A stretch of DNA of 64,000 nt from an uncultured Thermoplasmata archaeon. GTDB taxonomy: Archaea > Thermoplasmatota > Thermoplasmata > RBG-16-68-12. The DNA is taken from positions 128,001-192,000 of the forward strand of contig CAVYJM010000006.1 of assembly GCA_963768855.1 (NCBI GenBank). The letters are read 5' to 3'. A program made the position numbers and the translations under genes. The number at the start of each line of letters is the position of its first letter. Position 1 is the first letter of the stretch. The notes under the pieces were generated by a model. That model saw nothing but the letters and a program-made list of their open reading frames with translations, had not been told where the DNA came from and ran no database searches. Positions 1 through 31,926 of the stretch are shown here, one piece after another.

Positions 1-77
1 AAAATGGAAACCAAAGTGAGGCCACCGGTCTTTACGCCCAGTGGCAGGCTCTTAAAGTATTTTAAGAGTTTTCGAGT

Positions 78-4064: not shown

Positions 4065-4298
4065 ATGCTAAAAACCTCTAGGGCTCTGAGCCCGCTTCAC
4101 TCCAAAGACCCAGCCGCCGCAGCCTGGAGAGCGGCACAAGCCCACGTCGATGCGGATATCGAAGGCCTGTCGCGCGATCCTGACGCTGACAGAATGGTGA
4201 GCGATATGCGCGCCCAAGGCATCGAACCCAGGGACCGTATCAAAGCCCTCATCAGCCACTTCAAGGCTCGTAGCACCCACACACCGGCGGAGCCGTGA
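4065..4298 (+). CDS. Probable FicA/VbhA-type antitoxin
   Basis: 77 aa; ADIEG resembles the xxxE(G/N) inhibitory motif; GTGA overlap with the Fic gene. Confidence 0.65.
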   Translation: MLKTSRALSPLHSKDPAAAAWRAAQAHVDADIEGLSRDPDADRMVSDMRAQGIEPRDRIKALISHFKARSTHTPAEP

Positions 4299-4910: not shown

Positions 4911-4952
4911 GCTCGCGCCGCAATGATCGGGCGCAGCAGGGCCGTTTGCGCA

Positions 4953-5993: not shown

Positions 5994-6032
5994 AAGTCGA
6001 GGCTAACAATCTAGTTTGAGCTGAGCAAGTGA

Positions 6033-6136
6033 TTTGCCCCTTCACTCACGCTTTCGCCCCTTCAATCACAAATCTTCGCCCCTTTGGTCACAAGACTTCG
6101 CCCCTTCGATCACAAATATTCGCCTCTTTACTCACA
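6033..6136. repeat. Five iterons (18 bp, consensus TTCGCCCCTTYRNTCACA) forming the putative origin
   Basis: Copies start at 6033, 6053, 6075, 6097 and 6119 (20 then 22 bp period); next to repA and followed by an AT-rich tract ~6137-6250. Confidence 0.88.
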
Positions 6137-6296
6137 GTGGCATCTTGCATCAATATGATTTAGAACGATTATTCTACTTATACACAGCCCGTAACTATCT
6201 GGAATCTGATGTTAACTTATTTAACTCACTGGGATTTTGAATTTGGAAAAGAAAGAAGGGGCAAACGGATGCAGCCCCCCTTGCCCCAGATGCCCT

Positions 6297-6924
6297 TCAT
6301 TCCACGAGAGAGAGTTCTGGCAAACAGTGCGCATCATAATAATCGGAGACTGTTTCGAAAGCCCGCCGCGCCGTTTGCCGTACTGCCGTCGAAGGAGCTG
6401 CCAGCTCACCGGTCAGCAAATCGGAAATCGAATTTACAAAGGGGATGGCTGGCAGGAGGATTTGCTCCGGAAAGGCGCGCGTGAGACCATCGATCAAATA
6501 CAGGGCGGCTTGTGCGGCAAAGGCATTGGTAGGCCAGGCGCTCGGCCAAGCGAGTGCCTTTGGCATTGCCGCCAAAGATTGCCGCGGCGGTATCGATGTC
6601 TTCTTCAGAGGCCCGAAAAGGCAGGATCGTGAGCCCAACGTGCTTAGAGACTTCGATGTCGAACTCGGGCCGGTTGCCCCCGCCGTCGATGACAAGCCAG
6701 CCGTTCAGGTTGCTGCGGCTAGAGTTCAAAATGAGCGCCAGCTGCTCCGGCAGACGGCCATCGAGCACCGCATAAGGCCGCCCCTGCCCGCGCACTTTGC
6801 GCTTGGGATCGGTTAAGGCGTATGCAGCGGGAACCCCAGACAAGTAAGCGCCGAGGCAAATCAAATGCGAGGAAGCCGTCTTGGTGGTCCCGCCCTTGTC
6901 GCCAAGGATGGCAATGGTTTTCAT
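6297..6924 (-). CDS. parA: ParA-family partition ATPase, frameshift at ~6586
   Basis: LGDKGGTTKTA deviant Walker A, WLVIDGGG Walker B; C-terminus in ORF 6297-6695. Confidence 0.82.
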
Positions 6925-7247
6925 GACGCCCCCGGACGGCCACGCTCCAGAACTTCGAGCATGATTTCCTGCGCCGAGACCACGCGCCGTTCGATCTTGG
7001 TGCGTTCGGCGGCTTCGAAGGTATAGTCATCCAAAAGGCTGCGATCCGGCCGCAAGGTGATTTGCACCGTGTCAGCGGCCTTCGCCTTGGCGGACCTTTT
7101 GACAGCCATAGGTTCGGCTTTCCCAGCCCGATCCGGTACAACGGGCTCTTGTTCCGGTTGCGGCAGGGGCAAGTGGAGTTTTCGCCGCACCGTCAGCGAA
7201 GCTGCCAGGGCAAGGGCGTCTCGGTTCGGCTTCACGGCGTTCCCCAT
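6921..7247 (-). CDS. Small partition partner protein (ParG/RHH-like)
   Basis: ATGA overlap with parA; low-complexity N-terminus then VQITLRPDRSLLDDY (beta-alpha); start MGNAVK at 7247. Confidence 0.55.
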   Translation of the reverse strand: MGNAVKPNRDALALAASLTVRRKLHLPLPQPEQEPVVPDRAGKAEPMAVKRSAKAKAADTVQITLRPDRSLLDDYTFEAAERTKIERRVVSAQEIMLEVLERGRPGAS

Positions 7248-7586
7248 TTTTCGAATGTTCAAATGTATAACTTTTTGATACTTAGAACTTAAGAGGTTAA
7301 AAACTGGTAAACACAAAGCTTTGCCGATTTATAACGTCATGCAAGCATGGTTGCAGCGAGTTTTAAATCTTTGAAACGGAAAAGCTGTAACTTTGCAAAA
7401 CTAATACGTTACACAATCGCAGTGCCGCAAAGGCTAGAATTATCGGTCCTCTAACGCTGTGATGCCGGGCAATTCCAACTTCGTGAAGTTACAACGCCAG
7501 CCGGATAATCCAAGGGTAGCCAGCGAACGGATTTGGCAGACTTTTTTTCTGGCCTCGAAGGGGACTTTTTGTGATAGAATTACTTT

Positions 7587-7949
7587 ATGAGCAATTTACT
7601 CGACCATGCCATTGATGCCGTTAAGCGGCTCCCCGAAGACCGGCAACATGTCGTCGCCGAGGCCATGCTGGCGCTCGCCGAAAATGAAGCGCCATCGCAG
7701 TTTACCTTAGAGCCTGCGGGAGAGGAGCCAACCGAGGAGCAAATCCTTGCACTCATACCGACGGTGATGCCTTCGGCCGTACCCAGCAAGGCCGAAGTTG
7801 CCGCATGGAATAGGCTTTCAGAAGACGAACAACTCCGCCGTTACCGGCAAGCCCTCAATCACCCCGATTGCGACCGCATCTCCCATCTAAGCATGGATGA
7901 CATTCTTGCGCTCGCGCGCCAGGACGCAGCGCAGGCCGGGCATGCCTAA
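7587..7949 (+). CDS. Antitoxin-like protein upstream of ParE
   Basis: MSNLLDHAIDAVKRLPEDRQ addiction-module-like N-terminus; C-terminal SMDDILALARQ ParD-like; overlaps the toxin start. Confidence 0.6.
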   Translation: MSNLLDHAIDAVKRLPEDRQHVVAEAMLALAENEAPSQFTLEPAGEEPTEEQILALIPTVMPSAVPSKAEVAAWNRLSEDEQLRRYRQALNHPDCDRISHLSMDDILALARQDAAQAGHA

Positions 7950-8238
7950 ATTCCGGCTGACGGACGCGGCAGCGGCCAAGCTTCGCGTCATTCTCCGCGA
8001 CTCCGAGCTGAAATTTGGGCGGCATCAAACGGACATCTACTACGCCGGTTTTATCAAAACCTTCGAGCTTCTTTGTCATTTTCCCGGCATAGCGCGCAGC
8101 GTCGACCATCTCCGTTCAGGCTACCGCCGGTACCGCTACGAGTCTCACATGATTTTTTTTACGGCCGAAAACGATGAGATTGTCATCCGCGATCTTTTTC
8201 ACACCGCTCAGAATATCACGAAGGACATGCTTGGATAG
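7942..8238 (+). CDS. parE: RelE/ParE-family toxin
   Basis: MPKFRLTDAAAAKLRVI...KFG...FPGIARSVDHLRSGYRRYRYESHMIFF. Confidence 0.85.
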   Translation: MPKFRLTDAAAAKLRVILRDSELKFGRHQTDIYYAGFIKTFELLCHFPGIARSVDHLRSGYRRYRYESHMIFFTAENDEIVIRDLFHTAQNITKDMLG

Positions 8239-8282
8239 GCTATCTATCGGCTAGCCCGAGGATATCCGGCTATGAGAGCGAA

Positions 8283-8311
8283 GGGCCAGCGACTTTCCAG
8301 AACGCTGGCCC
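8283..8311. terminator. GC-rich hairpin downstream of parE
   Basis: GGGCCAGCG-11nt-CGCTGGCCC perfect 9-bp stem; U-tract weak. Confidence 0.4.
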
Positions 8312-8956
8312 CCGTGATTTTCATCACCTTGCACGGTCATCGGGACTCCTCCCTGTACCGTGCGCCGAGTTTAGCAACGAATCTCCGCCTGCGTCCATAG
8401 GCCAGGGCGAAACTTAAACCACGTACCACGGATCAGCCCAGAAACTCCGCGCCGCAAAAAAATCTTCTCCTGCCAGCGCACATCATCTTGCCAAAAAATA
8501 CTCCACGGAGAGCGCGAGAGGTGTGAAACCTCTCGCATGGGGCGAGGCCCTCGGCCGAGCCCCCAAAATAACGGGTCGCGCGCTTTAGCGCGCGTCCACA
8601 TTGCCGCACTTCGCCATTAGTCCGCAGCTGTAACGATTGTTACCGGCGCTTGCCACAAGCATCGCTGACCCGGCGAAGCCGAGCCGTTTTTTTTGAGCCG
8701 GAATGCCGGCGGCTTCGCCGCCACAAGCAGGCGCGGCGAAGCCGCGTCGCGCAAATTTTTCGGGTTCATCCATTCCGGCTTTGCAACGGCAAAACGTGGG
8801 CCGAGCCGCCGCGCGAAAATTCCGACCGCATGCGCAACGGGACTGCCGCCGGGCATCGGGACCATGTCTGTGCTGATGTTCAGTCTAGACGACACTAAGC
8901 CGCTGTTCCGGTGTCGTAATCTTTACGGGTTGTTAGCAGAATCTGCCGTGGAAGAA

Positions 8957-8990
8957 GGAGGCGCACTTATGGGTTTTCGTTCCGAAAACC
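8957..8990 (-). promoter_or_regulatory. MOB-Q-type oriT
   Basis: Minus strand reads inverted repeat GGTTTTCG-GAA-CGAAAACC then CATAAGTGCGCC, matching the RSF1010-like TAAGTGCG^CC nick motif; 30 bp upstream of the relaxase start. Confidence 0.82.
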
Positions 8991-9019
8991 GCAGGCGCAT
9001 GGCGCGGGCACGGAACTTT

Positions 9020-10328
9020 ATGGCGATTTATTCCTTCAACCACGATTCGTTCGGCAAGACAACAAACCGCGCAGGAGCCGCAGGGGACAACGCGGCCTAC
9101 AATGCCCGCGAGAACGAAACGCGGCTGGTGAACGAGCAGACGCACGGCAAGTCCGCCGCGCGGCAATGCGGCCTACAACGCCCGCGAGGAAGCCACCTAT
9201 GCGGTGAGGAGCCATGTCATCCCGCCGAACCCTAAAGAGGCCGAGGCCTGGTTCCGCGAACAGGAGAAGAGCGAGCGCAAGAACGCCCGCATGTCCGACC
9301 GCTTCATCGGGGCGCTGCCTCGTGAATTGACGCCGGAGCAGTGCATCACGGCGGTAGAAAGTTTTTGCCGCGAGGTGACGCAAGACCGGGTGCCGTGGCA
9401 TTTTGCGCTGCATCTGGAGTTGGGTAAAAAGAACGAGCCCGACTGGAATCCGCACGCGCATATCATCTTCCGCGACCGCGACGTCGAAACGGGCCGCCGC
9501 GTCCTTTACACATCGGCGGGGCCGAAGGAGCGCGCCCATCTTGCCGCCAAGGGCATCGAACCCTGGACCACGCGCGACTTCCGCGAGGAGTGGGGAGGGC
9601 AGATGAACCGGGCGCTCGAACGGGCAGGCCACGACGCGCGCGTCGATCATCGCACGCTGAAAGAGCAGGGGATCGACCGCGCAGCCGCACAATCCATATT
9701 GGGCCGGGCAGCCAGAACGCGGCGCAAAAAGGGACATCAATTCGAAAGCCAGGACCGAACGCTCGCCGAGCGTACCATCCCATACAGTCTCCTCGACGAA
9801 GGCAGCCGCGCCGATCACAACGCAAGGATCGTCGAAGGCAATCAAGCACGCCAGCAGGAGAAGCGGCAGGCGACCCGCGACGCGATCAAGGCGAATGCGC
9901 AAATGACAAGGCACGGCGTCGCACCGGTAGCCCATCCCGCGTGCGCGCCGCTTCCGATACACCCGGCGGCGGATGAGGATCGCGAGCAGCAGCGCCTGCG
10001 TGAAGCCCAAACCCAAGACCGCCGCGTCCTGTACAAAGAGCAGAAACTCGACCGCGACGTGCTTCGGGCAGCCCAAACCGCCGAACTGAATCAACACAAA
10101 GCATGGGCCAAGGAGCTTTACGCCAGCGCGCGCAAGGCCGCGTTCGAGCAAGTGAAGGAGCGCACCTCAGACCGCTGGAAACAGGTGCGCGCCATCGACG
10201 ACCCAGCGCGAGCGCGACAAGGCCGCCGAGGCGCTCAAGCTGGAGCGAAAAGCCCTCTACGCCAAAACGGCAGCTGTCCGCGTCGCCGAATTACGCCAGC
10301 AGAAAGAACGAAGCGTGGGAGGCGATGA
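9020..10328 (+). CDS. mobA: MobA/MobL (MOB-Q) relaxase, frameshift at ~9160
   Basis: MAIYSFNH start, NAAYNAR motif I, ALPRELT, NPHAHI (HUH), RVDHRTLKEQGIDR. Confidence 0.9.
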
Positions 10329-11918
10329 ACGGAAGCCCAAGCGAAAGAACGCCTCGATCTTCGCGGCGCGCACCGTGACGAATATACGGCGGCGCTGACG
10401 CAGACAGCACGCCGCCGAGAGGCATCGGCACGCAGCAACAACAGCGCGCGCACGAATTGCAACGCGACGCCAACAGCATCGCGGCGCGCGCACGTCCGGG
10501 CATCAAGGCATGGCGAACCAGCAAAAGGCGGCGTTGCAAACCATCCGCCTTAAGCACAACGCCCGGCAGGCTAGCCCAGGGGATAGCCAGGCGATAGCCT
10601 CGCAGAATCCCGCAGAGGCGATGAAAACCTTTATGAAGACGGCGATAGCCGAGCATGAGCGGCGCAGACAAAATCCGCGCGGGACTGAACGCCCAGCGCC
10701 AGAGCACACCGGCTGCGGGCAGCAACGTCCCAGCAGCTTACGCACGCAGGCGGGCCCGCCGCGCTCACCGGCCGAAGCCGCCCGCGCGCATTCAAAACCA
10801 GCACCCCGACGCGCAGACGCAGGTCCGGCAGGCGGCGCAGATCGGCAGGACGTTGAGCAAGCGAGGAACGGGCCAACGCCTCGTCGTGAACTGAGAGCAC
10901 AAGCTCGACGCGCCACGACAAGGCCAGCCGTTCCTGGCATCGCGATAGCTTCTCCAGTCCCAACAGCAGAAGGGCGGCAAGGACAAGGGCCGCAGCGGAG
11001 GTGGCCGGGGCCGGTAACAGACGCGCAGCAGCGGCCGTCAACGCCGCGCGTCTACCTACCACAGGGCCTGAGCAACCCAAGCGAACCAATCGACGGTTTG
11101 TCAATGTTCCCCGTTCACCTATACCGGCCGCCGTCAATCCTCGCTCTGCCTTCAAACCCGATGCCCGGCTTGCCGATCCTCCCCGCGTTTCCAAACCGGC
11201 GGCCCCCACTCTTCGCGCGGCGTTCAAAACCGCCGCGCGCGCAGCAAACGCTGCCAGCGCCAAAACCAGCCCGGAAGAAAACAACCACAAGCGGCGGCAA
11301 GGGCGGCCCCTTCACCACCAGCGCCATCGCCGAAGATTATCTCAAGCTCTGCCGTGATCCCTTCAGCGATTTGCAACGCTGGATCGATGAAGATAAAAAG
11401 ACAGGTAATAGAGTCCTCCCACCTCCAGCCACGGACAACGCCATGATTCACACGCCGCACGAACCACAACCTCAGAGCAACTTCTGCGTCAAACACTGCA
11501 TGAAGTGTCAAGCCGGATGGACAAGATCGACAAGCCTCGGAGTGACCGTGGTGATTTGCCTGCTCAATCGGGAGCCGGTTCTCGCCAACATCACGGCCTG
11601 CAACAAGTTCAAGCCGATCGAAATCTAACCGGCCACACCCACGGGAGCGCCGAAGGCCACGTTGCCAACAGCAGCGAGGTCTCCGGCATTCACGGCTATT
11701 ACGCCGCGCTCATGGCCGCCGCGCGCAGCTCGCTTTCACCGCGTAATGCCGCCGCCCTTATTCGCAATCTCAAAAATCAAAAAATCCTCGCCGTCCGCAC
11801 CGCCAAGGACCGGCGCCGGGCCAGCATTCAAAACCGTAGAATGACAATCATGGCAAGTCCCGAGCGCCCCCGCAGCAGTTCGCCTTCGCTTTGCGTGCCG
11901 GGGCCGCCCAACAGCTGA
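10329..11918 (+). CDS. Probable long charged/low-complexity C-terminal extension of the relaxase, in shifting frames
   Basis: Successive overlapping ORFs (10510-11628, 11505-11918) with Q/R/A-rich coding-like stretches and no clean independent start. Confidence 0.35.
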
Positions 11919-12077
11919 TATCCATAGAGTTGCACGACGCCAGCACCAGCGAGAGACGGTTCCCATAGCTTCGTTTTGCACCCCGATCTTGGGGTAGAAC
12001 CAACATTCGTGTCACCAGAGGCCAAATTGGGTTCTTTTACTCAAAGGTACGTAAAACGACACGGCCAGGGGGGACGA

Positions 12078-12366
12078 TCAACCTTCATGGCATTCAGCCC
12101 TCGCTAAAGCGACCTGCCCCATCTGCTCTGATATTTCCAGCCCGAGCGGTTCGAATATGGCGCGGCGTTGGATGGTTATAGGGTGAGTTCGGGTCGCCCT
12201 GCGCCTCGGCCAGTTCGCAGGTAATCCGGGTATTGCGGCCGTCCGGCATGGCGTGCAGGAGAACACGTCCGAGCGCGCCTAAAGCGCTGTGATGAAAGTC
12301 GTAGCACCAGCCGCCATCCGGCAGCGGTCGTTTCTTGAAGGTGATCTCGGGCGGCAGGCGGATCAT
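12078..12366 (-). CDS. Plasmid hypothetical protein, frameshift at ~12180
   Basis: MIRLPPEITFKKRPL...LGALGRVLL... continues as ...QRRAIFEPLGLEISEQM in the adjacent frame. Confidence 0.55.
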
Positions 12367-12879
12367 GGTGAATTGTTTCTTGCGCGTTGGGCCGGTTCTG
12401 TCAAAAGGCGGCATCTGTCACATAAGCCGGCTTGATCGCGGTGGTGAATAAGGGGGATTTGGCCGCACCCCTCGCTAGCGAGGGGCCAGGCTCTAGCCGC
12501 CCGCTAGACGGGCGGCCGGAGCCACGCGCTTCGCGCGCGTCTCCGCACTTCGTGTGACGATCCCTCGCGGGGAGTCTGCTGCCAACGGCACGGCAAGGAA
12601 TGGCGGTTGCGGCAGACCGGCGCGTGCAAAAAGAAAATTCACCTAAGCAAAAATACCTGCTCAAAGCCTTCACCACGAAGCAGCACCTCGAAAAGGCTGC
12701 TCCACGAACCCAGGCTTTCGCGGGGGCCGCTGGCGCTATGGGGCATACCCCCGCGAAATCCTGGCTCCGCGAAGCAGCCCGAACCGGCGGCGCGTGTCTG
12801 CCAAACCAACCCCCTCGAACAGGACCGGCCCGTTGCAAAACTCTTAATTAGATAGCCATTGACAGAAAGCCAGCATTTA

Positions 12880-12917
12880 GGGGTCATCGCAGAATCTTCC
12901 CCAAATCGTACGCTAAG
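12880..12917 (+). repeat. Tn3-family 38-bp terminal inverted repeat
   Basis: GGGGTCATCGCAGAATCTTCCCCAAATCGTACGCTAAG fits GGGG...TACGCTAAG; contains the tnpA stop codon. Confidence 0.88.
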
Positions 12918-15902
12918 CCTCGTCGAGGAAGGCTGAACGGGGATTTCTGAGGGGTCTAGAAGCCGTTTTCGAGCGGTTCTGTTGGCCAAACGTAATCGCC
13001 GTTAAAGGTAATGTGCTCCCAGCCGAGCGGAGCGATATGAGAAAGTAAATCATCGCCGATGACCTCACCTTGAGCGCGCAGATGAGCAACGGCACGGCCG
13101 AGATAAACAATGTTCCAAAGAATGATCGCAGCGACAACGAGATTTCAACCCGGATGCCCGGTAGCGCTGATTTTCGAAAGATCGGTCGCGGATTTCGCCG
13201 AGACGATGAAAAAATACTGCCCTGGCGAGCGCGTTGCGCGCCTCACCCTTGTTGAGCCCGGCATTGGCTCGCCGCCGCAGACCAGGATTGCTGATCCAAT
13301 CGAGGGTGAAAAGGGTGCGTTCAAGCCGGCCAATCTCACGAAGCGTCTTTGAAAGCGCGTTCTGTCTGGGATAAGCCGCGAGCCGTCGTAGCATTGCCGA
13401 CGGCATGGCAGTTCCCGCCTTGATCGACGCCACGAGGCGCAGGGTCTCATCCCAGTTTTCTCCGGAGAGCCGGAAATCAATGGTTCCCCCGATCATGGGG
13501 GCCAAGGCAGGATAGATTGCGCGCTTGTCCGCAACATAAAGTCGACGATCAGCAAGGTCGCGAATGCGCGGCGCGAAGCGAAACCCCAAAAGGTGGCACA
13601 GACCAAATACATGATCGATTGCGCCAGCAGTGTCGGTGTAATGCTCGCGGATTTGCAGAGAGCATTCGTGATGCATGAGGCCATCCAGAACATACGGTGC
13701 ACTCGGCTCGGCGATTGGCCGCCATGATTTTGCTGTTGTACGGCCCGTACCGATCAGAGATATGTGTGTAGAATTTTACGCCGGGTTCGGAGCCATATTT
13801 GGCATTGTAATCGGCACGCGCCTCGCCATGCCCGCCCGCTTTGAAGAATTGTCCGTCCGACGATGACGTGTCGCCATCACCCCAGATTTTCGTAAAAGGG
13901 TTTGCGTGGATCGCATCAACTAAACATGCAAGGCCGGCCTGATAGGTTTCATCGCGGATGTGCCATTCGGCAATCCAGAGCAGCTTTGCATGGCTGAAAA
14001 TCTTCGAGCTGCGGGCCATGCGCCCAAGCCCCAGATTGGTGGCGTCAGCAAGAAGCGCCGTCATCAAAGCCACGGTGTCCTCGGCAACAGCTCCGGTGCG
14101 CAAATGGCTAAACCGCTCGGCGAAGCCTGTCCATTCATGCACTTCGGCAAGAAGCTCGGTGATGCGTAGACGTGGCAACATGCCATAGAGCCAGGGCGTG
14201 TGATATTGTCGCATTCGAGGTTTTCATCCTTGCGGATCGGATCTGATCGAAAGCCCCTCCGCCGTGATGGCCGCTTCGACCAGCTCGCCGGCGGAAGCGA
14301 GTGCATCGACCTCGCGAAGCCGGGCATCCAGAAAGTCCACACGCTCGGCGCGCCATGTATCAAAGCAGTCAGGGACAGCGAGCCCCAAGTCGTTGTCCCG
14401 CCGCCTTGCGGCAAAAGTCTCTGGCGGCAGAAGATAATCATCGAACGCCCGAAATGCCCGGCTGCCTTCGACCCAGATGTCGCCTGCGCGCAAGCGGTCG
14501 CGCAGCGCCAGCATGATCGCAACCTGATAGGCGCGTCGATCGATGGCACTGCCGGTTCCAATCTGCTTGCGCCAGGCCCTGTTGGGAAACGCCGCAGGCG
14601 CGTACAAGAGTATCGTTCTGGCCCGTCGCGTAGAATTCCCGCAGCACTTCAAGCGCGGCAAGCAAGGGATCATCGATTTTCCATGCGCGGAACACGAAGG
14701 CATTGAGGAGAACTGGCGCCAGGCGTTCTCAGCACCGTGGGATATCGTTCGACGATCTCCGCCAGATTATCCTCGCGTGTTTCCGTGACGATCTTGTCGG
14801 TTTCGAGAAGCAGGCCGTTCAGGCGATCCCAACCCAGGGCGCGTTCCACGGTTTCGATCTGATCTTCGCCGCAAGCCTTGGCCGCCAGCATCGCTTTCGC
14901 CATGCCGAGCAGCGCTCGCGTCGAAGCATCGAGCGTCTTTGCCCGCTCAACGACGCGCAGCTTGTGCATCTGATCGGCGCGGCGAAAGATGCTGCCAAGC
15001 ATCTTGTCGAAAATGACGAGCGCGGCGTCCGTGAGGATGGCTTCCATCTCTCGTGCAACAACGACCAGTGCCGCCAGCACGGCGGGTCTCGTCGAACCGC
15101 GAGAGATGCTGGGCACTGAGAATGGCCGTTTCCCTGGCAATGGCAGCATAGCGCGCGCGATGAACGCGCTGTTCGCGGTCCTGTCCGATGCCAAGCGCGC
15201 GGACGACCTGTAGGCGTTCGACGATTTCAACCAGGTTTTTCTCTGCCCGGCGCTTCCGGCCATTCGCGCAACCATGCCAGCGGCGTCCGGTCTTGATCGT
15301 CGCTGGTCAGAAGCAACGTTTCCAATCCGGCAATCTGCTCGGGCCCCATTCCCTCGATGAGGTTTTTGTGCGCCCGTTTTCGGGCGCGTGCGCGTGCGGC
15401 CAGGGCAATCTTTTCCAAAGTAACGGAGGCTGGAAGCAAAATGTTTTGGGCGCGCAAATGTCCAATCATCGCGGCGACAATGGCATCACCGCGATCCGTG
15501 CCTGTTGCTTCTTCAAGTGCAGCATTGGCAACGGCTCGATAATCCCCGCGCCGAAAGGCGCGAAGGCCAAGGTAGTCTTGCAAATTCCCCGAGATGCTCA
15601 CGGCGCGTTTCTTCTCGGCTGGCATACTCGTTCAAGACTCCCGGTCTAATGCCGAGTTGCTGACCGATGAAGGAAAGAATGTCAGTGGACGGCACTTCGC
15701 CGACGCCAACCACGCGGCCGGGAAATTTCAAATACGCAAAGTGCACGGCAAACCCCAACCGATTGGCGTCCCGGCGTCGTTGCCGCATCAGCGCCATTTC
15801 CTCAGGCGAGAACGTGCAGTGCCGGATGATCGCCGTCGGGTCCGACGGTGGATAAAACAGCGTTGTGCGAGATTGAGGCGAAAGAATTTCGTGTTTCTTC
15901 AT
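12913..15902 (-). pseudogene. tnpA: Tn3-family transposase TnpA, fragmented by many frameshifts
   Basis: [57 protein letters not shown] spread over at least 7 ORF pieces; start MKKHEIL at 15902. Confidence 0.92.
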
Positions 15903-16027
15903 GGCCGCCCCCTTGTTGCGCAAATGATCGTTTGTGCAAGTATTCGCGATTGGCTTGAAATGGCCTGTTTTTGTATTGCAGAAATATATTGCAATGCGAA
16001 ACATGAATGCAATAGAATTGTGCAATC
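15903..16027. promoter_or_regulatory. Putative res site and divergent tnpA/tnpR promoters
   Basis: AT-rich intergenic segment with repeated TTGCA/TGCAA half-sites. Confidence 0.55.
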
Positions 16028-16612
16028 ATGTTGATAGGTTACGCGCGCATCTCCACAAGTGAACAAGACACCAAAATGCAGGTGGCTGCTCTTCAGTCTG
16101 CCGGGTGTGAATCAATCTATCGCGAGAGGGCCTCCGGCGGGCGCTGGGACCGGCCTGAGCTTCACAAACTACTGGATCATCTCCGTAAGGGCGACGTGGT
16201 CGTCGTCTGGAAACTCGATCGTCTGTCACGCTCGCTACGCGATGTGCTTACAATTATGGATCGGCTTCAGGAGCGGAAAGCAGGTTTTCGCAGCCTCACC
16301 GAGGCGGTTGATACAACGACGCCCGCCGGTCGGATGATGATGCAAATGGTCGGGGCGTTCGCAGAGTTCGAGCGCGCGATGCTGAAGCAGCGCACCAAGG
16401 CCGGCCTCGATGCAGCACGCAAGGAAGGCCGGATCGGCGGCCGACGGCCAAAGCTAAAGCCTCAACAGCAACAGGAAATCATGAAGCTCGTAAAAAGAGG
16501 CAAGAAGACCGCAGCCGATGCGGCGCGCCTGTTCGGCGTCCATCCGGCGACGGTGTCGCGGCTACTCCAGCGATTAAAGCTCTCCACGCCTGAAAAGGGT
16601 ATCATATCGTGA
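16028..16612 (+). CDS. tnpR: Serine resolvase TnpR
   Basis: GYARISTSEQD, KLDRLSRS, C-terminal HTH GVHPATVSR. Confidence 0.95.
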   Translation: MLIGYARISTSEQDTKMQVAALQSAGCESIYRERASGGRWDRPELHKLLDHLRKGDVVVVWKLDRLSRSLRDVLTIMDRLQERKAGFRSLTEAVDTTTPAGRMMMQMVGAFAEFERAMLKQRTKAGLDAARKEGRIGGRRPKLKPQQQQEIMKLVKRGKKTAADAARLFGVHPATVSRLLQRLKLSTPEKGIIS

Positions 16613-17070
16613 ACCTTATATTGCACAAGGCGGTGGAAACGGATGTCGATGCGATAACAGCTTGCGTTCGACGCGCTTATGAAAAATATGTACCGCTCAT
16701 CGGGCGACTGCCCAACCCGATGACGACGAATTACAGTCGCGCGGTAAGTAAGGAGTTCAAGTTGTCGATTCTTACCAGTCATAGCGGACACTTGCAGGCT
16801 GTGCTGGAATTAGTTTCGGAGTCTGGCCATCTGCTGGTTGAGAATGTGGCCGTAAATACATCTTCAACGCCGAAGTTCTGGGGCATCGGCTGATGGATTT
16901 TGCTGAACAGGAAGCGCAGCGACAACGGTTCCCAGAAATTTGGCTCTACACCAACGAAAAATTTGTTGCGAACATTGCTTTCTATGCGGGGCGTGGTTAC
17001 CACGAATTTAAGCGCGTACCATTCAAGGGTACCGATCTTGTTTTTATGTGTAAGCCCCTTAAAGACCATT
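16609..17070 (+). CDS. GNAT-family N-acetyltransferase, frameshifted at ~16860-16893
   Basis: AYEKYVPLIGRLPNPM, LLVENVAV, then MDFAEQEAQ...IWLYTNEK...NIAFY...GY in the next frame; 3' end approximate. Confidence 0.75.
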
Positions 17071-17108
17071 TACGCCAGTTTTGCCTGGCTAACAAATGCG
17101 GTGCACAT

Positions 17109-17657
17109 GTGCTGATCGGCTACGCGCGGGTTTCCACCCAACATCAGAATCTCGACCGGCAGCTCGGTGCCCTGCGCGCAGCACGCTGCAAACGTATCTT
17201 CGCGGAAAAGGCAACCGGCAAAACCGTCAAGGGGCGTCCGAAGCTAGAGAAGGCCATCGAGGAGCTTGGCACCGGCGACGTACTCCTGCTCGCCGAATGG
17301 GACCGCGCCACACGTTCGATGATTGACGGCATCGCCATCATGCAGCGCGTCGTGGCGCGCGGCGCCGTCATCAAGGTGCTCGACAAGCCGCACCTCGATC
17401 TCACCAGCAAAATCGGCCAAGGCATCCTCGCTTTTCTTTCGGCGCTTGCCGACGATGAGCGCGAGCGCATCGTCAAGCGCGCTGCGGATGGCCGGAGGGT
17501 CGCCAAGGCGAAAGGCGTTATGATGGGCCGTCCGCAAGCGCTGACAGAGCATCAAAGGGAAGAAGCGCGCCGGAGGTTTGCCAAAGGCGAAAGCTGCCGC
17601 TCCATTGCCAAGAGCTTCAACTGCCATCACAGCACGATTTCACGCTGCCAAAGATAG
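17109..17657 (+). CDS. Second serine recombinase/resolvase
   Basis: GTG start, LIGYARVSTQHQNLDRQ, EWDRATRS, HTH at the C-terminus. Confidence 0.92.
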   Translation: MLIGYARVSTQHQNLDRQLGALRAARCKRIFAEKATGKTVKGRPKLEKAIEELGTGDVLLLAEWDRATRSMIDGIAIMQRVVARGAVIKVLDKPHLDLTSKIGQGILAFLSALADDERERIVKRAADGRRVAKAKGVMMGRPQALTEHQREEARRRFAKGESCRSIAKSFNCHHSTISRCQR

Positions 17658-17867
17658 GCGGCCCGCGCAAGATTTAGGGCGCGGGAACACATCACAAAAA
17701 TGACGCGACCTCGCCACGCATGTGGCTGATGGGACGCACCCGTCTCATCATCGCGAAGCTATCTAGTTTCCCCGATTGGCGGCGTGAGCTGGACCGGGTA
17801 GTTAAGAAGGAGACTTAATACTGATCGATAAAGTTGTGTTGTGTAGTGGTGTGGGGAGTGGTGACTC

Positions 17868-18308
17868 ATGGGGCTGGGTCGCGTACTAGTTGTGCTGGCA
17901 AGTGCTGGCTTTTTTCAGGCTGCCTTCGCGCAGTCCTTGCCACCTATCGAAGGTCCTGGCCGCGAGCAGCAGCAATTTCGTGAAGCCCCTGCGCCCAAAG
18001 CGCAAACCTCTCCGCTTATCGCCATTCCAAGCACGATGCCCGCCGGACAGGCGGCAAAAATCAAGCTCGTGCTGAAACGGATCGAGGTCGAAGGCTCGAC
18101 GGTCTATAAGACGTCCGATCTGGAGCCGCTCTGGGCCGGTTTGACCGGCAAGCAGCTCTCAGTCGCCGACATTTACGCGCTGCGCGACCGCATCCGTCAG
18201 AAATATAGCGACGATGGCTGGCTGCTCGCGATCCCGGTGATCGTGCCGCAGCAAGCGAGCCAGAAAGCGGCGGTGATCCGTATTAAAGTCATCGAAGCCT
18301 ATATCGAC
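17868..18308 (+). CDS. ShlB/FhaC/HecB (TpsB) outer-membrane transporter, N-terminal POTRA only; truncated at the junction
   Basis: Signal peptide; IEVEGSTVY...LSVADIYALRDRIRQKYSDDGW...VIEAYID; barrel absent. Confidence 0.8.
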
Positions 18309-18901
18309 CCCTGTGCGCGATCGTCGCGTGCTGGACCGGGCCCGCGGACAAGGCGAAGAAGGCTCTCGCTCCGCTGCTCGACTCGGCCAAGATCGTCGCG
18401 CAGCTGCTCGGGCCGATGCCTTACCCCGCGCTGAACGCCGCCTTCGACGGGCTCGTGCCGCCGGGGCTCCAGCACTACTGGAAGACCGCCTTCGTGAAGG
18501 AGCTCCCGGACGGGGCGATCGCGGCCCACATGGCCCATGGTCCTAAGCTGCCCGCGGTCAACTCGACCGTGCACATCTACCCGATCAATGGCGCTGTGCA
18601 CGACGTGAAGCCGGACGCGACCGCCTTCGGACACCGGGACGCGAAGTACGCCACGGTCATCGCAGGCATGTGGCCCGACCCCGCGCAGAACGAGGCGAAC
18701 ATCCGCTGGGTGCGGGACTACTACAAGGCGATCGAGCCCTACTCGGAGAAGGGAGGCTACATCAACTTCGCGTCCGAGGACGACAAGGACAAGGCGTCGG
18801 TCAACTTCGGCCGCAGCTACCCGCGCCTCCGGAAGATCAAGGCGAAGTACGACAAGGGCAACGTCTTCCGGTTCAACCAGAACGTCGCTCCGGCGGCGTG
18901 A
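18308..18901 (+). CDS. FAD-linked oxidase (BBE-like C-terminal half); N-terminus missing at the junction
   Basis: PLCAIVACWTGP..., YWKT, TAFGHRD, GYINF, LRKIKAKYDKGNVFRFNQN; no FAD-binding N-domain or start. Confidence 0.88.
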   Translation, partial: PLCAIVACWTGPADKAKKALAPLLDSAKIVAQLLGPMPYPALNAAFDGLVPPGLQHYWKTAFVKELPDGAIAAHMAHGPKLPAVNSTVHIYPINGAVHDVKPDATAFGHRDAKYATVIAGMWPDPAQNEANIRWVRDYYKAIEPYSEKGGYINFASEDDKDKASVNFGRSYPRLRKIKAKYDKGNVFRFNQNVAPAA

Positions 18902-18903
18902 GG

Positions 18904-19797
18904 CTACTTCGGCTTCACGCGGTTCAGGTAGATCCCCGCGAGGACCGCGGCCGCCCCGAGGACCAAGGTCACCGTCAGGTGCTCCCCGAGCAGCAGGATG
19001 CCCATCCCGGACGCGAGGACCGGAACGGTGAGCTGGACGACCCCTCCCTGGGACGCGCGGATCCGCCGCAGGGTCGCGTTCCATAGGATGTAGCTCAGGG
19101 CCGTGCTGACCATGCCCATGAACAGGGCGAGCCCCAGGCCGTCCCATGTGAACGCGATCGAGAGGGCGTCCGGGGCCGTGACCCAGAGGATCGGAGCCAG
19201 GGCCAGGGAGAACGCGCCGACGACGAGGAACGTGGAGAACGTGTATCCCTGGGAATCGCGCGCGCCTCGGCCGTGGACGGAGTAGAGGCCCCATGAGGTC
19301 CCCGTGGCGGCCATCAGGGCCACCCCGGGAAGGGTCACATCCCGGATTCCGCCGAAGGTGATGATCCCCACCCCGAGGACGGCGAGGGCGGGTCCCGCAA
19401 CGGCCCGCGGCGTCGGCCGGTCTCCATCGTGCGCAACGCCAAAGAGGGCCATCGTCAACACGACGAACGCGTAGAACACGAGGGTGCCCGCCGCGGCGGG
19501 GATGAAGGCGTAGCCGAAGGAGATCGCGAACGCATAGGCGCCGAGGTAGACGCCTCCGAGGAGGTCGCGGCGGGAGCCGACCCGGAGCGCTCTCCCGCCC
19601 GGCACGGCCGCCCTCACGAGGAGGAGCATCGCGAACCCGCTCGCGAAGCGCACCGTGGTCAGGAGGTAGGGCGTCGCGAGGCCTCCGACGATCAGGTGGC
19701 GGGTGATCACGCTGTTCCCCGCGAAGCAGAGCATGATGAACGCGATCGCGAGCGGGATCTCCCACCGTTGGGCTGCCTGCCTGGGCGCCGCGGGCAT
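18904..19797 (-). CDS. DMT/EamA-family transporter
   Basis: About 10 hydrophobic segments; PVLASGMGILLLGEHLT. Confidence 0.88.
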   Translation of the reverse strand: MPAAPRQAAQRWEIPLAIAFIMLCFAGNSVITRHLIVGGLATPYLLTTVRFASGFAMLLLVRAAVPGGRALRVGSRRDLLGGVYLGAYAFAISFGYAFIPAAAGTLVFYAFVVLTMALFGVAHDGDRPTPRAVAGPALAVLGVGIITFGGIRDVTLPGVALMAATGTSWGLYSVHGRGARDSQGYTFSTFLVVGAFSLALAPILWVTAPDALSIAFTWDGLGLALFMGMVSTALSYILWNATLRRIRASQGGVVQLTVPVLASGMGILLLGEHLTVTLVLGAAAVLAGIYLNRVKPK

Positions 19798-19938: not shown

Positions 19939-20934
19939 ATGGGGATGCCTGGCGCAACGGACTCTCGGTCCACGGCCGAGGAGGAACGCGTCTGCCCGGA
20001 GTGCGGCAGCTCTCACCTCGTCCGGGACTACGACCGCGGTGAAGTGGTCTGCGTTGCCTGCGGCCTCGTCCTCACCGATCGCGCGATCGACCAGGGTCCT
20101 GAATGGGTCGCTTACTCCATGGAAGAGGCGGAGCGGCTCGCGCGCACGGGACCGCCGCGGAAAGCCCTGACGGGGGCCTCGGGCCTGACGACCGTCGTCC
20201 CGTACCCGACCCGGGACATCCGGGGCCACCAGATCCCGGAGCAGGCCCGGAAGATGTTCTACCGCCTGCGGAGGCTCCAAGTGACCTCCGCACAGTATGC
20301 GCGCGGGGAACGGAGCTCTGCGGCGATGGCACGCGCGCTGGACCGGATCGTCTCCCAACTGGGCCTCCCGGATTCCGTGAAGGATGAGGCGGGCCTCATC
20401 TGCCGGAGGGCGATTGAGAGCGGGGTCATGCGGGGTCGCTCCATGTCGGCCGTGGTTGCCGCTGCCGTGTACGCGGCCTGCCGTGTCGACGGTGTCCCGC
20501 GCACCTTGGGCGAGATCGAGCGCGTGACGGGGATCGAGAGGAAGACGATCGCCCGGCACTATCGGGACCTCGTCCGGGCCCGGGCCGTCCGGTCCGTGCC
20601 GCTCCCGCGCCCTCAGGACTACGTAGGCCGCTTCTGCGCCGAACTCAAGCTGAGCAGTCGGACGCAGCTCGAGACCATGCGCATCCTCAAGGATTGGGAC
20701 CGGACCGGGATCTCGAGGTCCTTGTCGCCCGTCGGGACGGCCGCGACGGCGATCTACCTGGCGGCCGGGTCCTGCGGCGAGCGCAGGCGCCAGAACGAAA
20801 TCGCCAAGGTCAGCGGCGTGACGGAGGTGACGCTCCGGAGTCGCTTGGCCATCGCGAGGGGCTCCACGAAGCGGTTCGCCGGGGCTAGCGGACATGCGCC
20901 GAACCCCCGCATGTGGGCGCCTCTCTCCCTGTGA
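19939..20934 (+). CDS. tfb: Archaeal transcription initiation factor IIB (divergent paralog)
   Basis: CPECG...CVACG Zn ribbon, IDQGPEW B-reader, two cyclin repeats, VTEVTLR HTH. Confidence 0.93.
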   Translation: MGMPGATDSRSTAEEERVCPECGSSHLVRDYDRGEVVCVACGLVLTDRAIDQGPEWVAYSMEEAERLARTGPPRKALTGASGLTTVVPYPTRDIRGHQIPEQARKMFYRLRRLQVTSAQYARGERSSAAMARALDRIVSQLGLPDSVKDEAGLICRRAIESGVMRGRSMSAVVAAAVYAACRVDGVPRTLGEIERVTGIERKTIARHYRDLVRARAVRSVPLPRPQDYVGRFCAELKLSSRTQLETMRILKDWDRTGISRSLSPVGTAATAIYLAAGSCGERRRQNEIAKVSGVTEVTLRSRLAIARGSTKRFAGASGHAPNPRMWAPLSL

Positions 20935-21147: not shown

Positions 21148-21696
21148 TTGGCCAAATACCGGATCGAGAACGTCGTCGCATCGACCTCCCTCGGGGAGGA
21201 GCTCGACCTCAAGGCGATCGCTCACGTCCTTGGCGGGGCGGAGTACGAGCCGGAACAGTTCCCCGGCCTCATCTACCGCATCAAGGACCCGAAGACCGCG
21301 ACCCTGCTCTTCCGCAGCGGCAAGGTCGTGTGCACTGGGGCGAAGAGCCTCGAGCACGTGAAGATCGCGATCGACCTCGTGTCGAAGCAGATCCAGGCCG
21401 CGGGCATAACCGTGAAGAAGAACCCGGAGATCGAGGTCCAGAACATCGTCGCCACGTCGGACCTCGGCGCGCAGATCGACTTGAACGCGGTCGCGATCAC
21501 TCTGGGCCTCGGTCAGGTCGAGTACGAACCGGAGCAGTTCCCCGGCCTCGTCTACCGCATCGAGAAGCCCGCGGTCGTCCTTCTCCTATTCGGCAGCGGG
21601 AAGCTCGTCTGCACGGGCGCCCGCAAGCCCTCCGATGTGGACGAGGCCGTCGAGAAGGTCACGGCCGAGCTCCGGGCCAACGGGCTCCTGCACTGA
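21148..21696 (+). CDS. tbp: TATA-binding protein
   Basis: Duplicated YEPEQFPGL(I/V)YR and LF(R/G)SGK(V/L)VCTGA repeats. Confidence 0.97.
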   Translation: MAKYRIENVVASTSLGEELDLKAIAHVLGGAEYEPEQFPGLIYRIKDPKTATLLFRSGKVVCTGAKSLEHVKIAIDLVSKQIQAAGITVKKNPEIEVQNIVATSDLGAQIDLNAVAITLGLGQVEYEPEQFPGLVYRIEKPAVVLLLFGSGKLVCTGARKPSDVDEAVEKVTAELRANGLLH

Positions 21697-21784: not shown

Positions 21785-22051
21785 ATGGCGAAGGCCGAGG
21801 TAACCGGAACGGTCGTGGCGTTCCGCCAGAGCAAATTCAAGCAGGACAGCTACCAGACCGTCGTGGACCTCGCCCAGCCGGATCAGGCGGAGAAGCTCCT
21901 CGGAGCCCGGGTCGTCTGGGCCCGCGCGGACGGCCTCAAGATCCTGGGCCGCGTCGTCGCACGCCACGGCCGGAGAGGAGCGGTCCGGGTCCGGTGGGAC
22001 CGCGGATTCCCGTCCCAGGCGTTGGGCACCCAGGTCAAGTTCGTCCCGTGA
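21785..22051 (+). CDS. rpl35ae: Ribosomal protein eL33 (L35Ae)
   Basis: HGRRGAVRVRWDRGFPSQALG matches the L35Ae signature; TATA CTTATA at 21753. Confidence 0.85.
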   Translation: MAKAEVTGTVVAFRQSKFKQDSYQTVVDLAQPDQAEKLLGARVVWARADGLKILGRVVARHGRRGAVRVRWDRGFPSQALGTQVKFVP

Positions 22052-31776: not shown

Positions 31777-31926
31777 ATGGCCCGCTTCCCGGAAGCCGAG
31801 CGGCGTCTGCTGCTCAAGAAGATCTGCATGCAGTGCTACGCGCGCAATGCGCCGCGGGCCACGCGCTGCCGGAAGTGCGGGAGCACGGAGCTCCGCCCGA
31901 AGGCCAAGGAAGCGCGGAAGGAGTAG
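31777..31926 (+). CDS. rpl40e: Ribosomal protein eL40 (L40e)
   Basis: [29 protein letters not shown]; TATA CTTAAA at 31747. Confidence 0.95.

What the first reader, a model, noticed from the sequence alone, without database searches (positions are those of the whole stretch)
18290..18330. Bacterial-to-archaeal junction cutting two genes: probable chimeric contig
Seen: the TpsB ORF stops being TpsB right after POTRA (…IEAYID, 18308). In another frame the C-terminal half of an FAD oxidase begins at the same bases (PLCAIVACW…) with no start or N-domain. GC and GC3 rise abruptly, and the only shared sequence is a short C run. There is no att, IR or TSD. Left side: outer-membrane TpsB and Alphaproteobacteria-like plasmid genes. 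Right side: TFB, TBP, eL33, eL40. Inference: an assembly or read chimera, not cross-domain HGT. Nothing left of 18308 should be attributed to the archaeon.
Basis: partly seen in the sequence, partly recalled or inferred. Interest (0 to 1): 0.7.

Follow-up and report, generated by a model that had tools for sequence, protein, structure and literature searches.

The report
Chimeric contig: bacterial DNA fused to archaeon
At window base 18305, about 146 kb of DNA from an alphaproteobacterium has been wrongly stitched onto an archaeal chromosome contig in the middle of two genes; this is an assembly error and not gene transfer, so everything left of that base belongs to a different organism.

Summary
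The window is C6:128001-192000 of a 24-contig MAG with 7.7% estimated contamination.

At window 18305-18311 a TpsB gene ends after its POTRA domain. In another frame, residues 261-458 of a 458-aa FAD/BBE oxidase begin. GC rises from 0.57 to 0.68 and GC3 from 0.68 to 0.94.

The whole of C6:1-146304 is alphaproteobacterial chromosome (bamA, carB, glnE, cheA). It ends in a plasmid-like island beside tRNA-Ser.

- **Intact locus exists.** Sibling contig C24 matches the archaeal side at 99% and runs straight through the breakpoint with the oxidase intact. A related species' genome (G009) is colinear with C24 there, and at least eight same-genus relatives have the full gene.
- **Not a lineage feature.** BamA was not found in 30 relatives searched.
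- **Quality step.** The bacterial block has frameshifts in essential genes (carB, bamA). The major archaeal contigs tested have none.
- **Recurrence.** Contigs C7, C17, C18, C21 and C24 also start with foreign-composition blocks. For C17 and C21 a sibling contig continues past the break.

The scan had already noted this junction in an overlapping window and similar mid-gene junctions on other contigs of this genome.

Verdict: artefact, low interest. Its practical value is that C6:1-146304 should be removed from the archaeal genome.

The parts
1..18304 (.). Window portion of the foreign block C6:1-146304, which is alphaproteobacterial DNA. In this window it is a plasmid-like integrated element beside tRNA-Ser.
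   Evidence: GC 0.52-0.65 against 0.64-0.72 on the right. Separate tetranucleotide class: PC1 +6 to +9, PC2 -1.3 to -3.1. DNA and protein hits only to Alphaproteobacteria. Upstream block encodes bamA, carB, glnE, cheA, mcm, putA and uup.
78..167 (+). tRNA-Ser(CGA) of the bacterial fragment; probable attachment site of the mobile element that follows.
Evidence: ARAGORN and Rfam tRNA at 59.7 bits.
4953..5993 (-). Plasmid-type replication initiator RepA (RPA family).
   Evidence: PF10134, E 2e-80. About 45% identical to RepA of Rhodobacterales and Sphingomonadales plasmids.
9204..10325 (+). MobA/MobL relaxase domain protein.
   Evidence: PF03389, E 1.6e-20.
13065..14214 (-). Tn3-family transposase DDE domain, split over two overlapping frames by a frameshift.
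   Evidence: PF01526 positions 163-338 lie in ORF 13065-13676 and positions 1-157 in ORF 13549-14214.
16028..17657 (+). Two serine resolvase/invertase genes (16028-16612 and 16893-17657).
   Evidence: PF00239, E 1.2e-47 and 1.2e-28.
17868..18308 (+). 5' quarter of a TpsB (ShlB/FhaC/HecB) outer-membrane transporter gene: signal-peptide-like start plus one POTRA_2 domain. The beta-barrel is missing.
   Evidence: PF08479, residues 68-143 of 147. About 36% identical to the N-terminus of the 568-aa Azospirillum ShlB/FhaC/HecB protein. No ShlB barrel found in the assembly, although that search rang in no control genome.
18305..18311 (.). Breakpoint interval. The bases CGACCC(C) could belong to either parent, and C6 lacks one G relative to the intact archaeal allele.
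   Evidence: Base-level alignment of C6 with C24. The blastn match of C24 and of four relatives to C6 ends at C6:146305-146314.
18308..18901 (+). 3' part (residues 261-458) of an archaeal FAD-linked/BBE oxidase gene. It has no start codon and no FAD-binding domain.
   Evidence: Translation. BBE PF08031 only. Matches query residues 261-458 at 98%. The full-length C24 allele has FAD_binding_4 plus BBE.
18904..19797 (-). EamA-family transporter, the first complete archaeal-side gene.
   Evidence: PF00892, E 3.5e-23. GC3 0.92.
19939..20934 (+). Archaeal transcription factor B (TFB).
   Evidence: Zn_Ribbon_TF plus TFIIB repeats; also found by the genome-wide TFIIB search.
21148..21696 (+). Archaeal TATA-binding protein.
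   Evidence: PF00352, E 6.6e-61, two repeats.
21800..22039 (+). Ribosomal protein eL33 (L35Ae).
   Evidence: PF01247 at 32.5 bits, above the cut-off.
31816..31908 (+). Ribosomal protein eL40.
   Evidence: PF01020 at 35 bits, above the cut-off.

Best explanation
The junction is an artefact of sequencing or assembly: DNA of two unrelated organisms from one sample was joined in a single contig.

Shown: C6:1-146304 is a fragment of an alphaproteobacterial chromosome, Hyphomicrobiales-like with no close sequenced relative. It ends in a mobile element carrying a TpsB gene. C6:146305 onward is the chromosome of an archaeon.

Shown: the true archaeal continuation is the rest of the FAD/BBE oxidase gene followed by a strain-variable region. 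That region is represented in the same assembly by contigs C24, C19 and C20.

Inferred: the major-strain archaeal contig could not be extended through the region where at least three haplotypes diverge. A chimeric read or a spurious graph edge then linked its free end to low-coverage bacterial sequence. The assembler followed this link, truncating both genes.

Inferred: foreign tails of 0.7-22 kb at the starts of five other contigs point to the same process, for example tails of chimeric long reads appended at contig ends.

I cannot tell whether the chimera arose in a physical or in-silico read or in the assembly graph.
For: 1. Intact alternative in the same assembly. C24:695-4830 equals C6:150439-146305 at 99.0% (36 mismatches, 5 gap positions). 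The match stops at the breakpoint, and C24 goes on with the N-terminal 260 residues of the oxidase (FAD_binding_4) and then archaeal sequence shared with C19, C20, C23 and C21.

2. The C6/C24 mismatches in the oxidase lie mostly at multiples of 3 and grow denser toward the break. This is real strain divergence, so the break sits at the edge of a multi-haplotype region. C19, C20 and C24 are 88-98% alike there.

3. Independent genomes. G009:C4 is colinear with C24 through the breakpoint, while its match to C6 ends at 146305. The same stop at 146305-146314 is seen for G028, G002 and G003. The oxidase is full-length without stops in at least eight same-genus relatives.

4. The left block is bacterial chromosome. 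It holds BamA, GlnE, CheA, CarB, MCM, PutA and Uup. The 80 best carB-fragment matches among GTDB species genomes are all Alphaproteobacteria, at 70% identity or less. No TFIIB or TBP hit lies inside the block. BamA was not found in 30 relatives, and the left-flank DNA has no real match in them.

5. Composition. All 15 chunks of C6:1-146304 form a tetranucleotide class distinct from the rest of the assembly and from its low-GC islands. GC3 steps from 0.68 to 0.94 at the junction.

6. Consensus-quality step. Bacterial carB is split at model position 442/443 into two frames, and bamA into three frames. The archaeal carB on C21 is intact. The tblastn test found about 4 frameshift sites in 13.4 kb aligned on the left block. 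It found none on the archaeal part of C6 or the C7, C10, C11 and C17 segments tested, and some on the minor-variant contigs C19 and C20. C24's TBP is also split.

7. Recurrence. C17:1-21675 (sibling C11), C21:1-1628 (sibling C9), C7:1-3404 (leuB fused to an ABC ATPase), C18:1-~2700 and C24:1-694 all start with blocks of GC 0.38-0.57 that switch abruptly to 0.67-0.68.

8. No att site, inverted repeat or target duplication at the junction.
Against: No reads could be mapped, so the coverage step and the lack of spanning reads are inferred from consensus quality and were not observed.

The foreign block runs to the contig's end, so the absence of a second junction does not by itself exclude a large insertion.

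A possible 6-nt microhomology (CGACCC, needing a 1-nt gap) could also arise from microhomology-mediated recombination in vivo.

The main-strain copy of the oxidase N-half is not present on any contig other than C24. A real disruption in the main strain would also predict this.

I have no explanation for why all the foreign blocks lie at contig starts and not at ends.
Confidence: 0.93

Rival explanations
1. Genuine strain-specific integration: one strain of the archaeon acquired at least 146 kb of alphaproteobacterial chromosome by illegitimate, microhomology-mediated recombination into its oxidase gene. On this reading C24 is the empty-site allele of another strain.
For: C24 differs from C6 by real synonymous substitutions, so two strains do exist. 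A possible 6-nt microhomology lies at the join. The main-strain N-half of the oxidase is missing from the assembly.
Against: Only one junction exists, and the block runs to the contig end. The block is housekeeping chromosome with outer-membrane biogenesis genes that have no function in an archaeon. Its composition is entirely unameliorated. It carries frameshifts in essential genes that the adjoining archaeal DNA lacks; DNA in one molecule at one depth should have one consensus quality. Five other contigs show the same kind of foreign start block with different GC. No integrase, att or TSD sits at the join. BamA was not found in 30 relatives.
Confidence: 0.03
2. Post-assembly concatenation: two separately assembled contigs, an archaeal one ending in the oxidase gene and a bacterial one ending in tpsB, were abutted without an N spacer. 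A scaffolding, polishing, gap-closing or bin-reassembly step would have done this, with no chimeric read or graph edge involved.
For: Without a gap the parents share essentially no sequence at the join. Foreign blocks sit consistently at the same end (the start) of several contigs, which looks procedural. There are no Ns anywhere in the assembly.
Against: Several foreign blocks are very short (0.7-3.4 kb). That fits tails of single chimeric long reads better than independent contigs. Nothing in the sequence separates this rival from the best explanation, and it is equally an artefact.
Confidence: 0.04

Closest known systems
Inter-genome (interspecies) chimeric contigs in metagenome assemblies and MAGs. 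These are the target of tools such as metaMIC (PMC9661791) and ResMiCo (PMC10174551). [quoted passage not shown]
   Same: A single sharp breakpoint with a change of composition and taxonomy. Both genes are truncated at the breakpoint. Marker-based quality figures still look acceptable (93.6% complete, 7.7% contaminated). The break lies next to a strain-variable region.
   Different: This case is unusually large (146 kb of foreign DNA on a 1.13-Mb contig) and crosses domains, which makes it easy to prove. It recurs at the starts of several contigs of the same assembly, which suggests a systematic cause.
Chimeric long reads (ligation or in-silico concatenation) and amplification chimeras formed by template switching at short homologies.
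   Same: Junctions with zero to a few shared bases. Foreign tails of read-like length (0.7-22 kb) at contig ends. Indel-rich low-depth consensus in the tails.
   Different: The sequencing platform and library method of this assembly are unknown to me. The 146-kb block is far longer than a read, so the chimeric link must have connected to further genuine bacterial reads.
Genuine bacterium-to-archaeon gene transfer and integrated elements in archaea: genomic islands at tRNA genes and integrated plasmids (my own knowledge; compare the integrated elements noted elsewhere in this genome, e1-5476057 and e1-5476345).
   Same: Foreign-looking DNA adjoining archaeal genes.
   Different: Real insertions have two junctions in host DNA and usually an integrase and att or direct repeats. 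They consist of transferable or selectable genes, are often shared by relatives, and have the host's sequence quality. None of this holds here.
TpsB / Omp85-superfamily transporters of two-partner secretion (FhaC, ShlB, HecB).
   Same: The stub has a signal-peptide-like N-terminus and a ShlB-type POTRA domain. It is about 36% identical to the Azospirillum ShlB/FhaC/HecB N-terminus.
   Different: Only about the first quarter is present. The second POTRA, the 16-strand barrel and any TpsA partner are missing because the sequence is cut off.

Membership tests
Inter-genome chimeric contig (misassembly) | Abrupt change of base and oligonucleotide composition at one point | tested here: met
   GC rises from 0.57-0.61 to 0.67-0.68. 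GC3 rises from 0.68 to 0.94. The tetranucleotide class changes exactly at C6:146304/146305.
Inter-genome chimeric contig (misassembly) | Taxonomic discordance of the two flanks | tested here: met
   Left: BamA, GlnE and an alphaproteobacterial CarB and RepA. Right: TFB, TBP, eL33 and eL40.
Inter-genome chimeric contig (misassembly) | The uninterrupted locus exists elsewhere (another contig, related genomes) and the join does not | tested here: met
   C24 and G009:C4 run through the breakpoint with the oxidase intact. At least eight relatives have the full gene. The junction 30-mer has no exact match in JGI metagenome contigs.
Inter-genome chimeric contig (misassembly) | Read-level signature: depth step, clipped reads, few or no spanning reads | not testable with these tools
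   The source reads were not identifiable. Only Logan contigs of other samples could be laid. The proxy was met: frameshift density is high in the left block and zero in the major archaeal contigs tested.
Inter-genome chimeric contig (misassembly) | Recurrence of similar breakpoints in the same assembly | tested here: met
   Starts of C7, C17, C18, C21 and C24. Sibling contigs C11 and C9 continue past the C17 and C21 breaks.
Genuine integrated foreign element / horizontal transfer | Two junctions, with host DNA on both sides and the other half of the target gene beyond the insert | tested here: not met
   The block reaches the contig end at C6:1. The oxidase N-half occurs only on C24, directly joined to its C-half.
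Genuine integrated foreign element / horizontal transfer | Recombination signature at the boundary (att or direct repeats, inverted repeats, target-site duplication, integrase or transposase end) | tested here: not met
   No repeat brackets 18305. The nearest recombinase genes (resolvases at 16028-17657) are internal to the bacterial side.
Genuine integrated foreign element / horizontal transfer | Presence in related genomes, or signs of residence in the host (amelioration, same sequence quality) | tested here: not met
   BamA and the left-flank DNA were not found in the 30 relatives searched. Composition is unameliorated. Consensus quality differs.
TpsB (ShlB/FhaC/HecB) transporter | POTRA domain(s) followed by an Omp85-type beta-barrel (Pfam ShlB PF03865) | tested here: not met
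   Only POTRA_2 is present. No ShlB match was found in the assembly, although that search rang in no control genome. The gene is a truncated member, not a complete one.
FAD-linked oxidase of the BBE/VAO type | N-terminal FAD_binding_4 (PF01565) plus C-terminal BBE (PF08031) | tested here: not met
   The C6 copy has BBE only. The C24 allele has both domains. The C6 copy is a truncated fragment of a genuine member.

The most novel reading that the evidence does not exclude
One strain of this archaeon really carries at least 146 kb of alphaproteobacterial chromosome, including outer-membrane biogenesis genes, integrated by illegitimate recombination into its FAD/BBE oxidase gene. That would be a very recent, very large inter-domain transfer caught before any amelioration.
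Probability: 0.02. Interest if true: 0.95.

Novelty: not a real feature. Interest (0 to 1): 0.1.

Why it matters
The junction has no biological meaning, but the practical consequences are real.

- **Mis-attributed DNA.** About 5% of this 'archaeal' genome is not archaeal: 146 kb on its largest contig, plus roughly 30 kb of smaller start blocks on other contigs. Taken at face value the contig would suggest an archaeon with BamA, a TpsB transporter, GlnE, bacterial chemotaxis genes and an alphaproteobacterial mobilizable element. That would seed false claims of inter-domain transfer.
- **Notes needing re-attribution.** Every note of this scan that falls in C6:1-146304 (window 1-18304 and the two preceding windows) describes an alphaproteobacterium. 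Notes near the starts of C7, C17, C18, C21 and C24 should be checked too.
- **Limits of marker-based QC.** The case shows that marker-based quality figures do not reveal within-contig chimeras.

Tried and rejected
1. Public reads. The look-up of sequencing runs found no run holding even a quarter of the 4-kb junction stretch. The best holders were wetland and freshwater-sediment metagenomes. I laid Logan contigs of four runs from four studies on window 12308-24307. Contigs of close relatives cover the stretch from the 18308 bin onward. The left side is almost uncovered and no listed contig bridges 18305. These are short contigs from other samples, and a part without cover proves nothing, so I do not count this as evidence.

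2. Exact scans of JGI metagenome contigs. I searched the 30-nt junction and a 32-nt stretch of the bacterial side, hoping to recover the intact tpsB parent. Neither found a match. The bacterial parent sequence beyond ...IEAYID therefore stays unknown, and the breakpoint cannot be placed more precisely than 18305-18311.

3. Exact-protein look-ups. Neither the 188-aa fusion ORF nor the intact C24 oxidase is on record. The window's own record may be masked.

4. Pfam ShlB search in the assembly for the missing barrel. No hit, but no control genome rang either, so this is weak.

5. Sigma-70 search. No hit anywhere in the assembly, including the bacterial block. It is uninformative for a 146-kb fragment.

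6. ORF-length statistics left versus right. I rejected this as a frameshift measure because it is confounded by GC.

7. NCBIfam scan of large archaeal-side ORFs as a quality control. Too few families matched, so I replaced it with the same-family and tblastn comparisons.

9. 'Circular plasmid linearised inside tpsB.' Rejected: C6:1-2400 does not continue tpsB, and the block is chromosomal.

10. Haloarchaeal identity of the right side, suggested by TBP hits to Haladaptatus plasmids. Not adopted: the habitat of the holder runs and earlier notes point to soil or wetland Thermoplasmatota. I did not test the taxonomy.

Full report
WHERE THE WINDOW LIES. The window is G000:C6:128001-192000. G000 has 2.87 Mb in 24 contigs, with estimated completeness 93.6% and contamination 7.7%. 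C6 is 1,127,194 bp long. Its first ~146 kb has GC of about 0.61 and the remainder about 0.67. The finding's junction, window 18305, is C6:146305.

The ORF at 17868-18434 starts with a signal-peptide-like segment and one ShlB-type POTRA domain (PF08479, residues 68-143). After ...IEAYID it continues as 41 codons of Arg/Ser-rich out-of-frame text. From 18308 a different frame reads PLCAIVACWTG... to a stop at 18899-18901. This piece has only the C-terminal BBE domain. GC3 is 0.68 in the TpsB stub and 0.66-0.70 in the resolvase and RepA genes to its left. It is 0.94 in the oxidase half, 0.92 in the EamA gene and 0.87 in TFB. No direct or inverted repeat brackets the join. On the right are TFB (19939-20931), TBP (21148-21696), eL33 (21800-22039) and eL40 (31816-31908). 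On the left are two resolvases, Tn3 transposase pieces, a MobA/MobL relaxase, RepA, a Fic protein, a B12/radical-SAM enzyme and tRNA-Ser(CGA).

WHAT THE LEFT SIDE IS. It is not a plasmid. It is the end of a 146.3-kb fragment of bacterial chromosome. Large ORFs of C6:1-128000 match BamA, CheA, GlnE, methylmalonyl-CoA mutase, CarB, PutA, Uup and an IS4 transposase, and there is a tRNA-Val. BamA is specific to bacteria with an outer membrane; the family search rang only in bacterial control genomes. The 80 best matches of the CarB fragment among GTDB species genomes are all Alphaproteobacteria, mostly Hyphomicrobiales, at 70% identity or less. The donor therefore has no close sequenced relative. 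RepA is about 45% identical to RepA of alphaproteobacterial plasmids. The TpsB stub is about 36% identical to the N-terminus of a 568-aa Azospirillum ShlB/FhaC/HecB protein. DNA-level hits of window 12000-18304 are all to Alphaproteobacteria or uncultured-bacterium plasmids. In a tetranucleotide PCA of 10-kb chunks of the whole assembly, all 15 chunks left of the junction form their own class (PC1 +6 to +9, PC2 -1.3 to -3.1). This class is distinct both from the bulk and from the genome's low-GC islands, which have positive PC2. The first chunk to the right of the junction is already bulk-like.

THE TRUE ARCHAEAL CONTINUATION IS PRESENT IN THE SAME ASSEMBLY. Contig C24 (24.7 kb), in reverse orientation, equals C6:146305-150439 at 99.0% (36 mismatches, 5 gap positions). 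The match ends at the breakpoint. C24 then continues with the missing 260 N-terminal residues of the oxidase, giving an intact 458-aa protein with FAD_binding_4 (40-174) and BBE (412-455). Further on it continues into sequence shared with C20, C19, C23 and the end of C21. The C6/C24 mismatches within the oxidase are mostly spaced at multiples of three. They thin out away from the junction: 19 in the first 560 nt and none beyond window 21670. They are therefore genuine synonymous strain differences. The break lies at the edge of a region where at least three haplotypes (C19, C20, C24; 88-98% alike) coexist. At base level the two parents share CGACCC if a 1-nt gap is allowed, and only two C's if not. 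The breakpoint lies within 18305-18311.

INDEPENDENT GENOMES AGREE WITH C24 AND NOT WITH C6. A search of 30 relatives found the oxidase full-length and without stops in at least eight same-genus genomes (73-94% identity). C6 matches only residues 261-458. A 20-kb stretch of the closest relative (G009:C4, about 90% nucleotide identity) is colinear with C6's archaeal side, then the whole oxidase as in C24, then C19/C20/C24. Its alignment to C6 stops at C6:146305. Alignments of G028, G002 and G003 to C6 also stop at 146305-146314, while those to C24 run on. BamA was not found in any of the 30 relatives, and the 4.3 kb left of the junction has no real match in them.

A QUALITY STEP COINCIDES WITH THE COMPOSITION STEP. 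The archaeal carB (C21) matches its model 2-1051 in one open frame. The bacterial carB on C6 is cut at model position 442/443 into two different frames. The bacterial bamA falls into three pieces in three frames. GlnE, MCM and PutA ORFs cover only parts of their models, and the Tn3 transposase in the window is split as well. I also ran a tblastn test with ORFs from related genomes. It found about four distinct frameshift sites in 13.4 kb of aligned left-block sequence. It found none in the aligned parts of the archaeal C6, C7, C10, C11 and C17, and a few on the small variant contigs C19 and C20. C24's TBP is split too. Frameshifts in essential genes are consensus errors. Their restriction to the bacterial block and the minor-variant contigs implies these parts were assembled from far fewer, indel-prone reads than the main archaeal contigs. 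DNA within one real molecule should not show such a step.

THE SAME ANATOMY RECURS. Change-point screening of all contig ends found sharp steps after foreign start blocks:
- C17: 21.7 kb at GC 0.56
- C7: 3.4 kb at GC 0.56
- C18: 2.7 kb at GC 0.46
- C21: 1.6 kb at GC 0.48
- C24: 0.7 kb at GC 0.38

For C17 and C21, sibling contigs (C11 at 97.8% and C9 at 99.2%) match from exactly the step onward. They continue on the other side with host-like GC-rich sequence. I located both peptides at C7:3385-3442 and confirmed a GC step from 0.565 to 0.671. The different GC values suggest several donor organisms, that is, a procedural cause.

HOW IT PROBABLY HAPPENED (INFERENCE). The main-strain archaeal contig ended where the population's haplotypes diverge. 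A chimeric read or spurious overlap at that free end led into low-depth alphaproteobacterial sequence, and the assembler extended along it. The short start blocks elsewhere would be tails of single chimeric reads. I cannot distinguish a physical or in-silico read chimera from a graph error or a later spacer-less concatenation. All of these are artefacts.

WHY NOT REAL TRANSFER. Several things would be expected of a genuine insertion and are missing:
- There is no second junction.
- There is no recombination signature at the join.
- The cargo is housekeeping chromosome with outer-membrane machinery.
- The composition is wholly unameliorated.
- The consensus quality is lower than in the adjoining DNA.
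- The block was not found in relatives.
- Five other contigs show the same pattern.

What remains open is that I could not map reads and that the main strain's oxidase N-half is represented only on C24. I put real integration at 2-3%.

COMPARISON WITH WHAT IS KNOWN. Interspecies chimeric contigs are a documented failure mode of metagenome assembly that marker-gene quality scores do not detect (metaMIC, PMC9661791; ResMiCo, PMC10174551; preprint 10.64898/2026.10.15.759294, per their abstracts). This case is a large and unusually clear cross-domain example.

VERDICT. This is not a real biological feature. Its interest is low except as a curation flag: C6:1-146304, and probably the start blocks of C7, C17, C18, C21 and C24, should not be attributed to the archaeon.

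Noticed in passing
L010 (G000:C17:1-20000), L012 (C21:1-12000), L011 (C18:1-12000), L013 (C24:1-20000); also C7:1-3404: At least five other contigs start with foreign-composition blocks that switch abruptly to archaeal sequence: C17:1-21675 (GC 0.56), C21:1-1628 (0.48), C18:1-~2700 (0.46), C7:1-3404 (0.56, leuB fused to an ABC ATPase) and C24:1-694 (0.38). Sibling contigs C11 and C9 continue past the C17 and C21 breaks. The C17 block encodes dehydroquinate synthase II, HtrA, a reductive dehalogenase and an LPS heptosyltransferase. All blocks sit at contig starts, which I cannot explain.
   Followed up: partly
G000:C24:4831-14551, C19, C20 (L013; beyond the window's junction): The archaeal population is multi-haplotype just beyond the oxidase gene. 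C19, C20 and C24 cover the same region at 88-98% identity, and divergence between C6 and C24 rises toward it. This is a strain-variable island, and it probably accounts for part of the 7.7% 'contamination'.
   Followed up: partly
window 78-12880: A plasmid-like integrated element lies beside tRNA-Ser(CGA). It carries RepA, a MobA/MobL relaxase, a Fic protein and a B12/radical-SAM enzyme. It belongs to the alphaproteobacterial fragment and not to the archaeon.
   Followed up: partly
window 9000-11000: There is a strong A-over-T skew (0.32-0.48) at GC 0.65 across the relaxase gene and the following 372-aa ORF (10510-11628), which has no Pfam match. This is unexplained; it may be a compositionally biased or repetitive coding region.
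   Followed up: no
window 13065-15275 (- strand): A Tn3-family transposase is broken into several overlapping frames, consistent with the indel-rich consensus of the whole bacterial block.
   Followed up: partly
G000:C6:1045001-1070000, C6:640001-645000, C8:52000-72663, C12:109000-122960: Low-GC stretches (0.55-0.59) have a tetranucleotide signature unlike the bacterial block (positive PC2). The two on C6 are flanked by archaeal DNA on both sides and may be genuine islands or proviruses. The C8 and C12 blocks sit at contig ends and could be further foreign pieces.
   Followed up: no
G000:C24:1466-1976 (L013): The TBP gene on the minor-variant contig C24 is split into three pieces by indels, while the C6 copy is intact. 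Small variant contigs of this assembly carry consensus errors.
   Followed up: partly
window 53601-53708 (- strand): A TPP riboswitch lies on the archaeal side (Rfam RF00059, 61.7 bits, above the gathering score).
   Followed up: no
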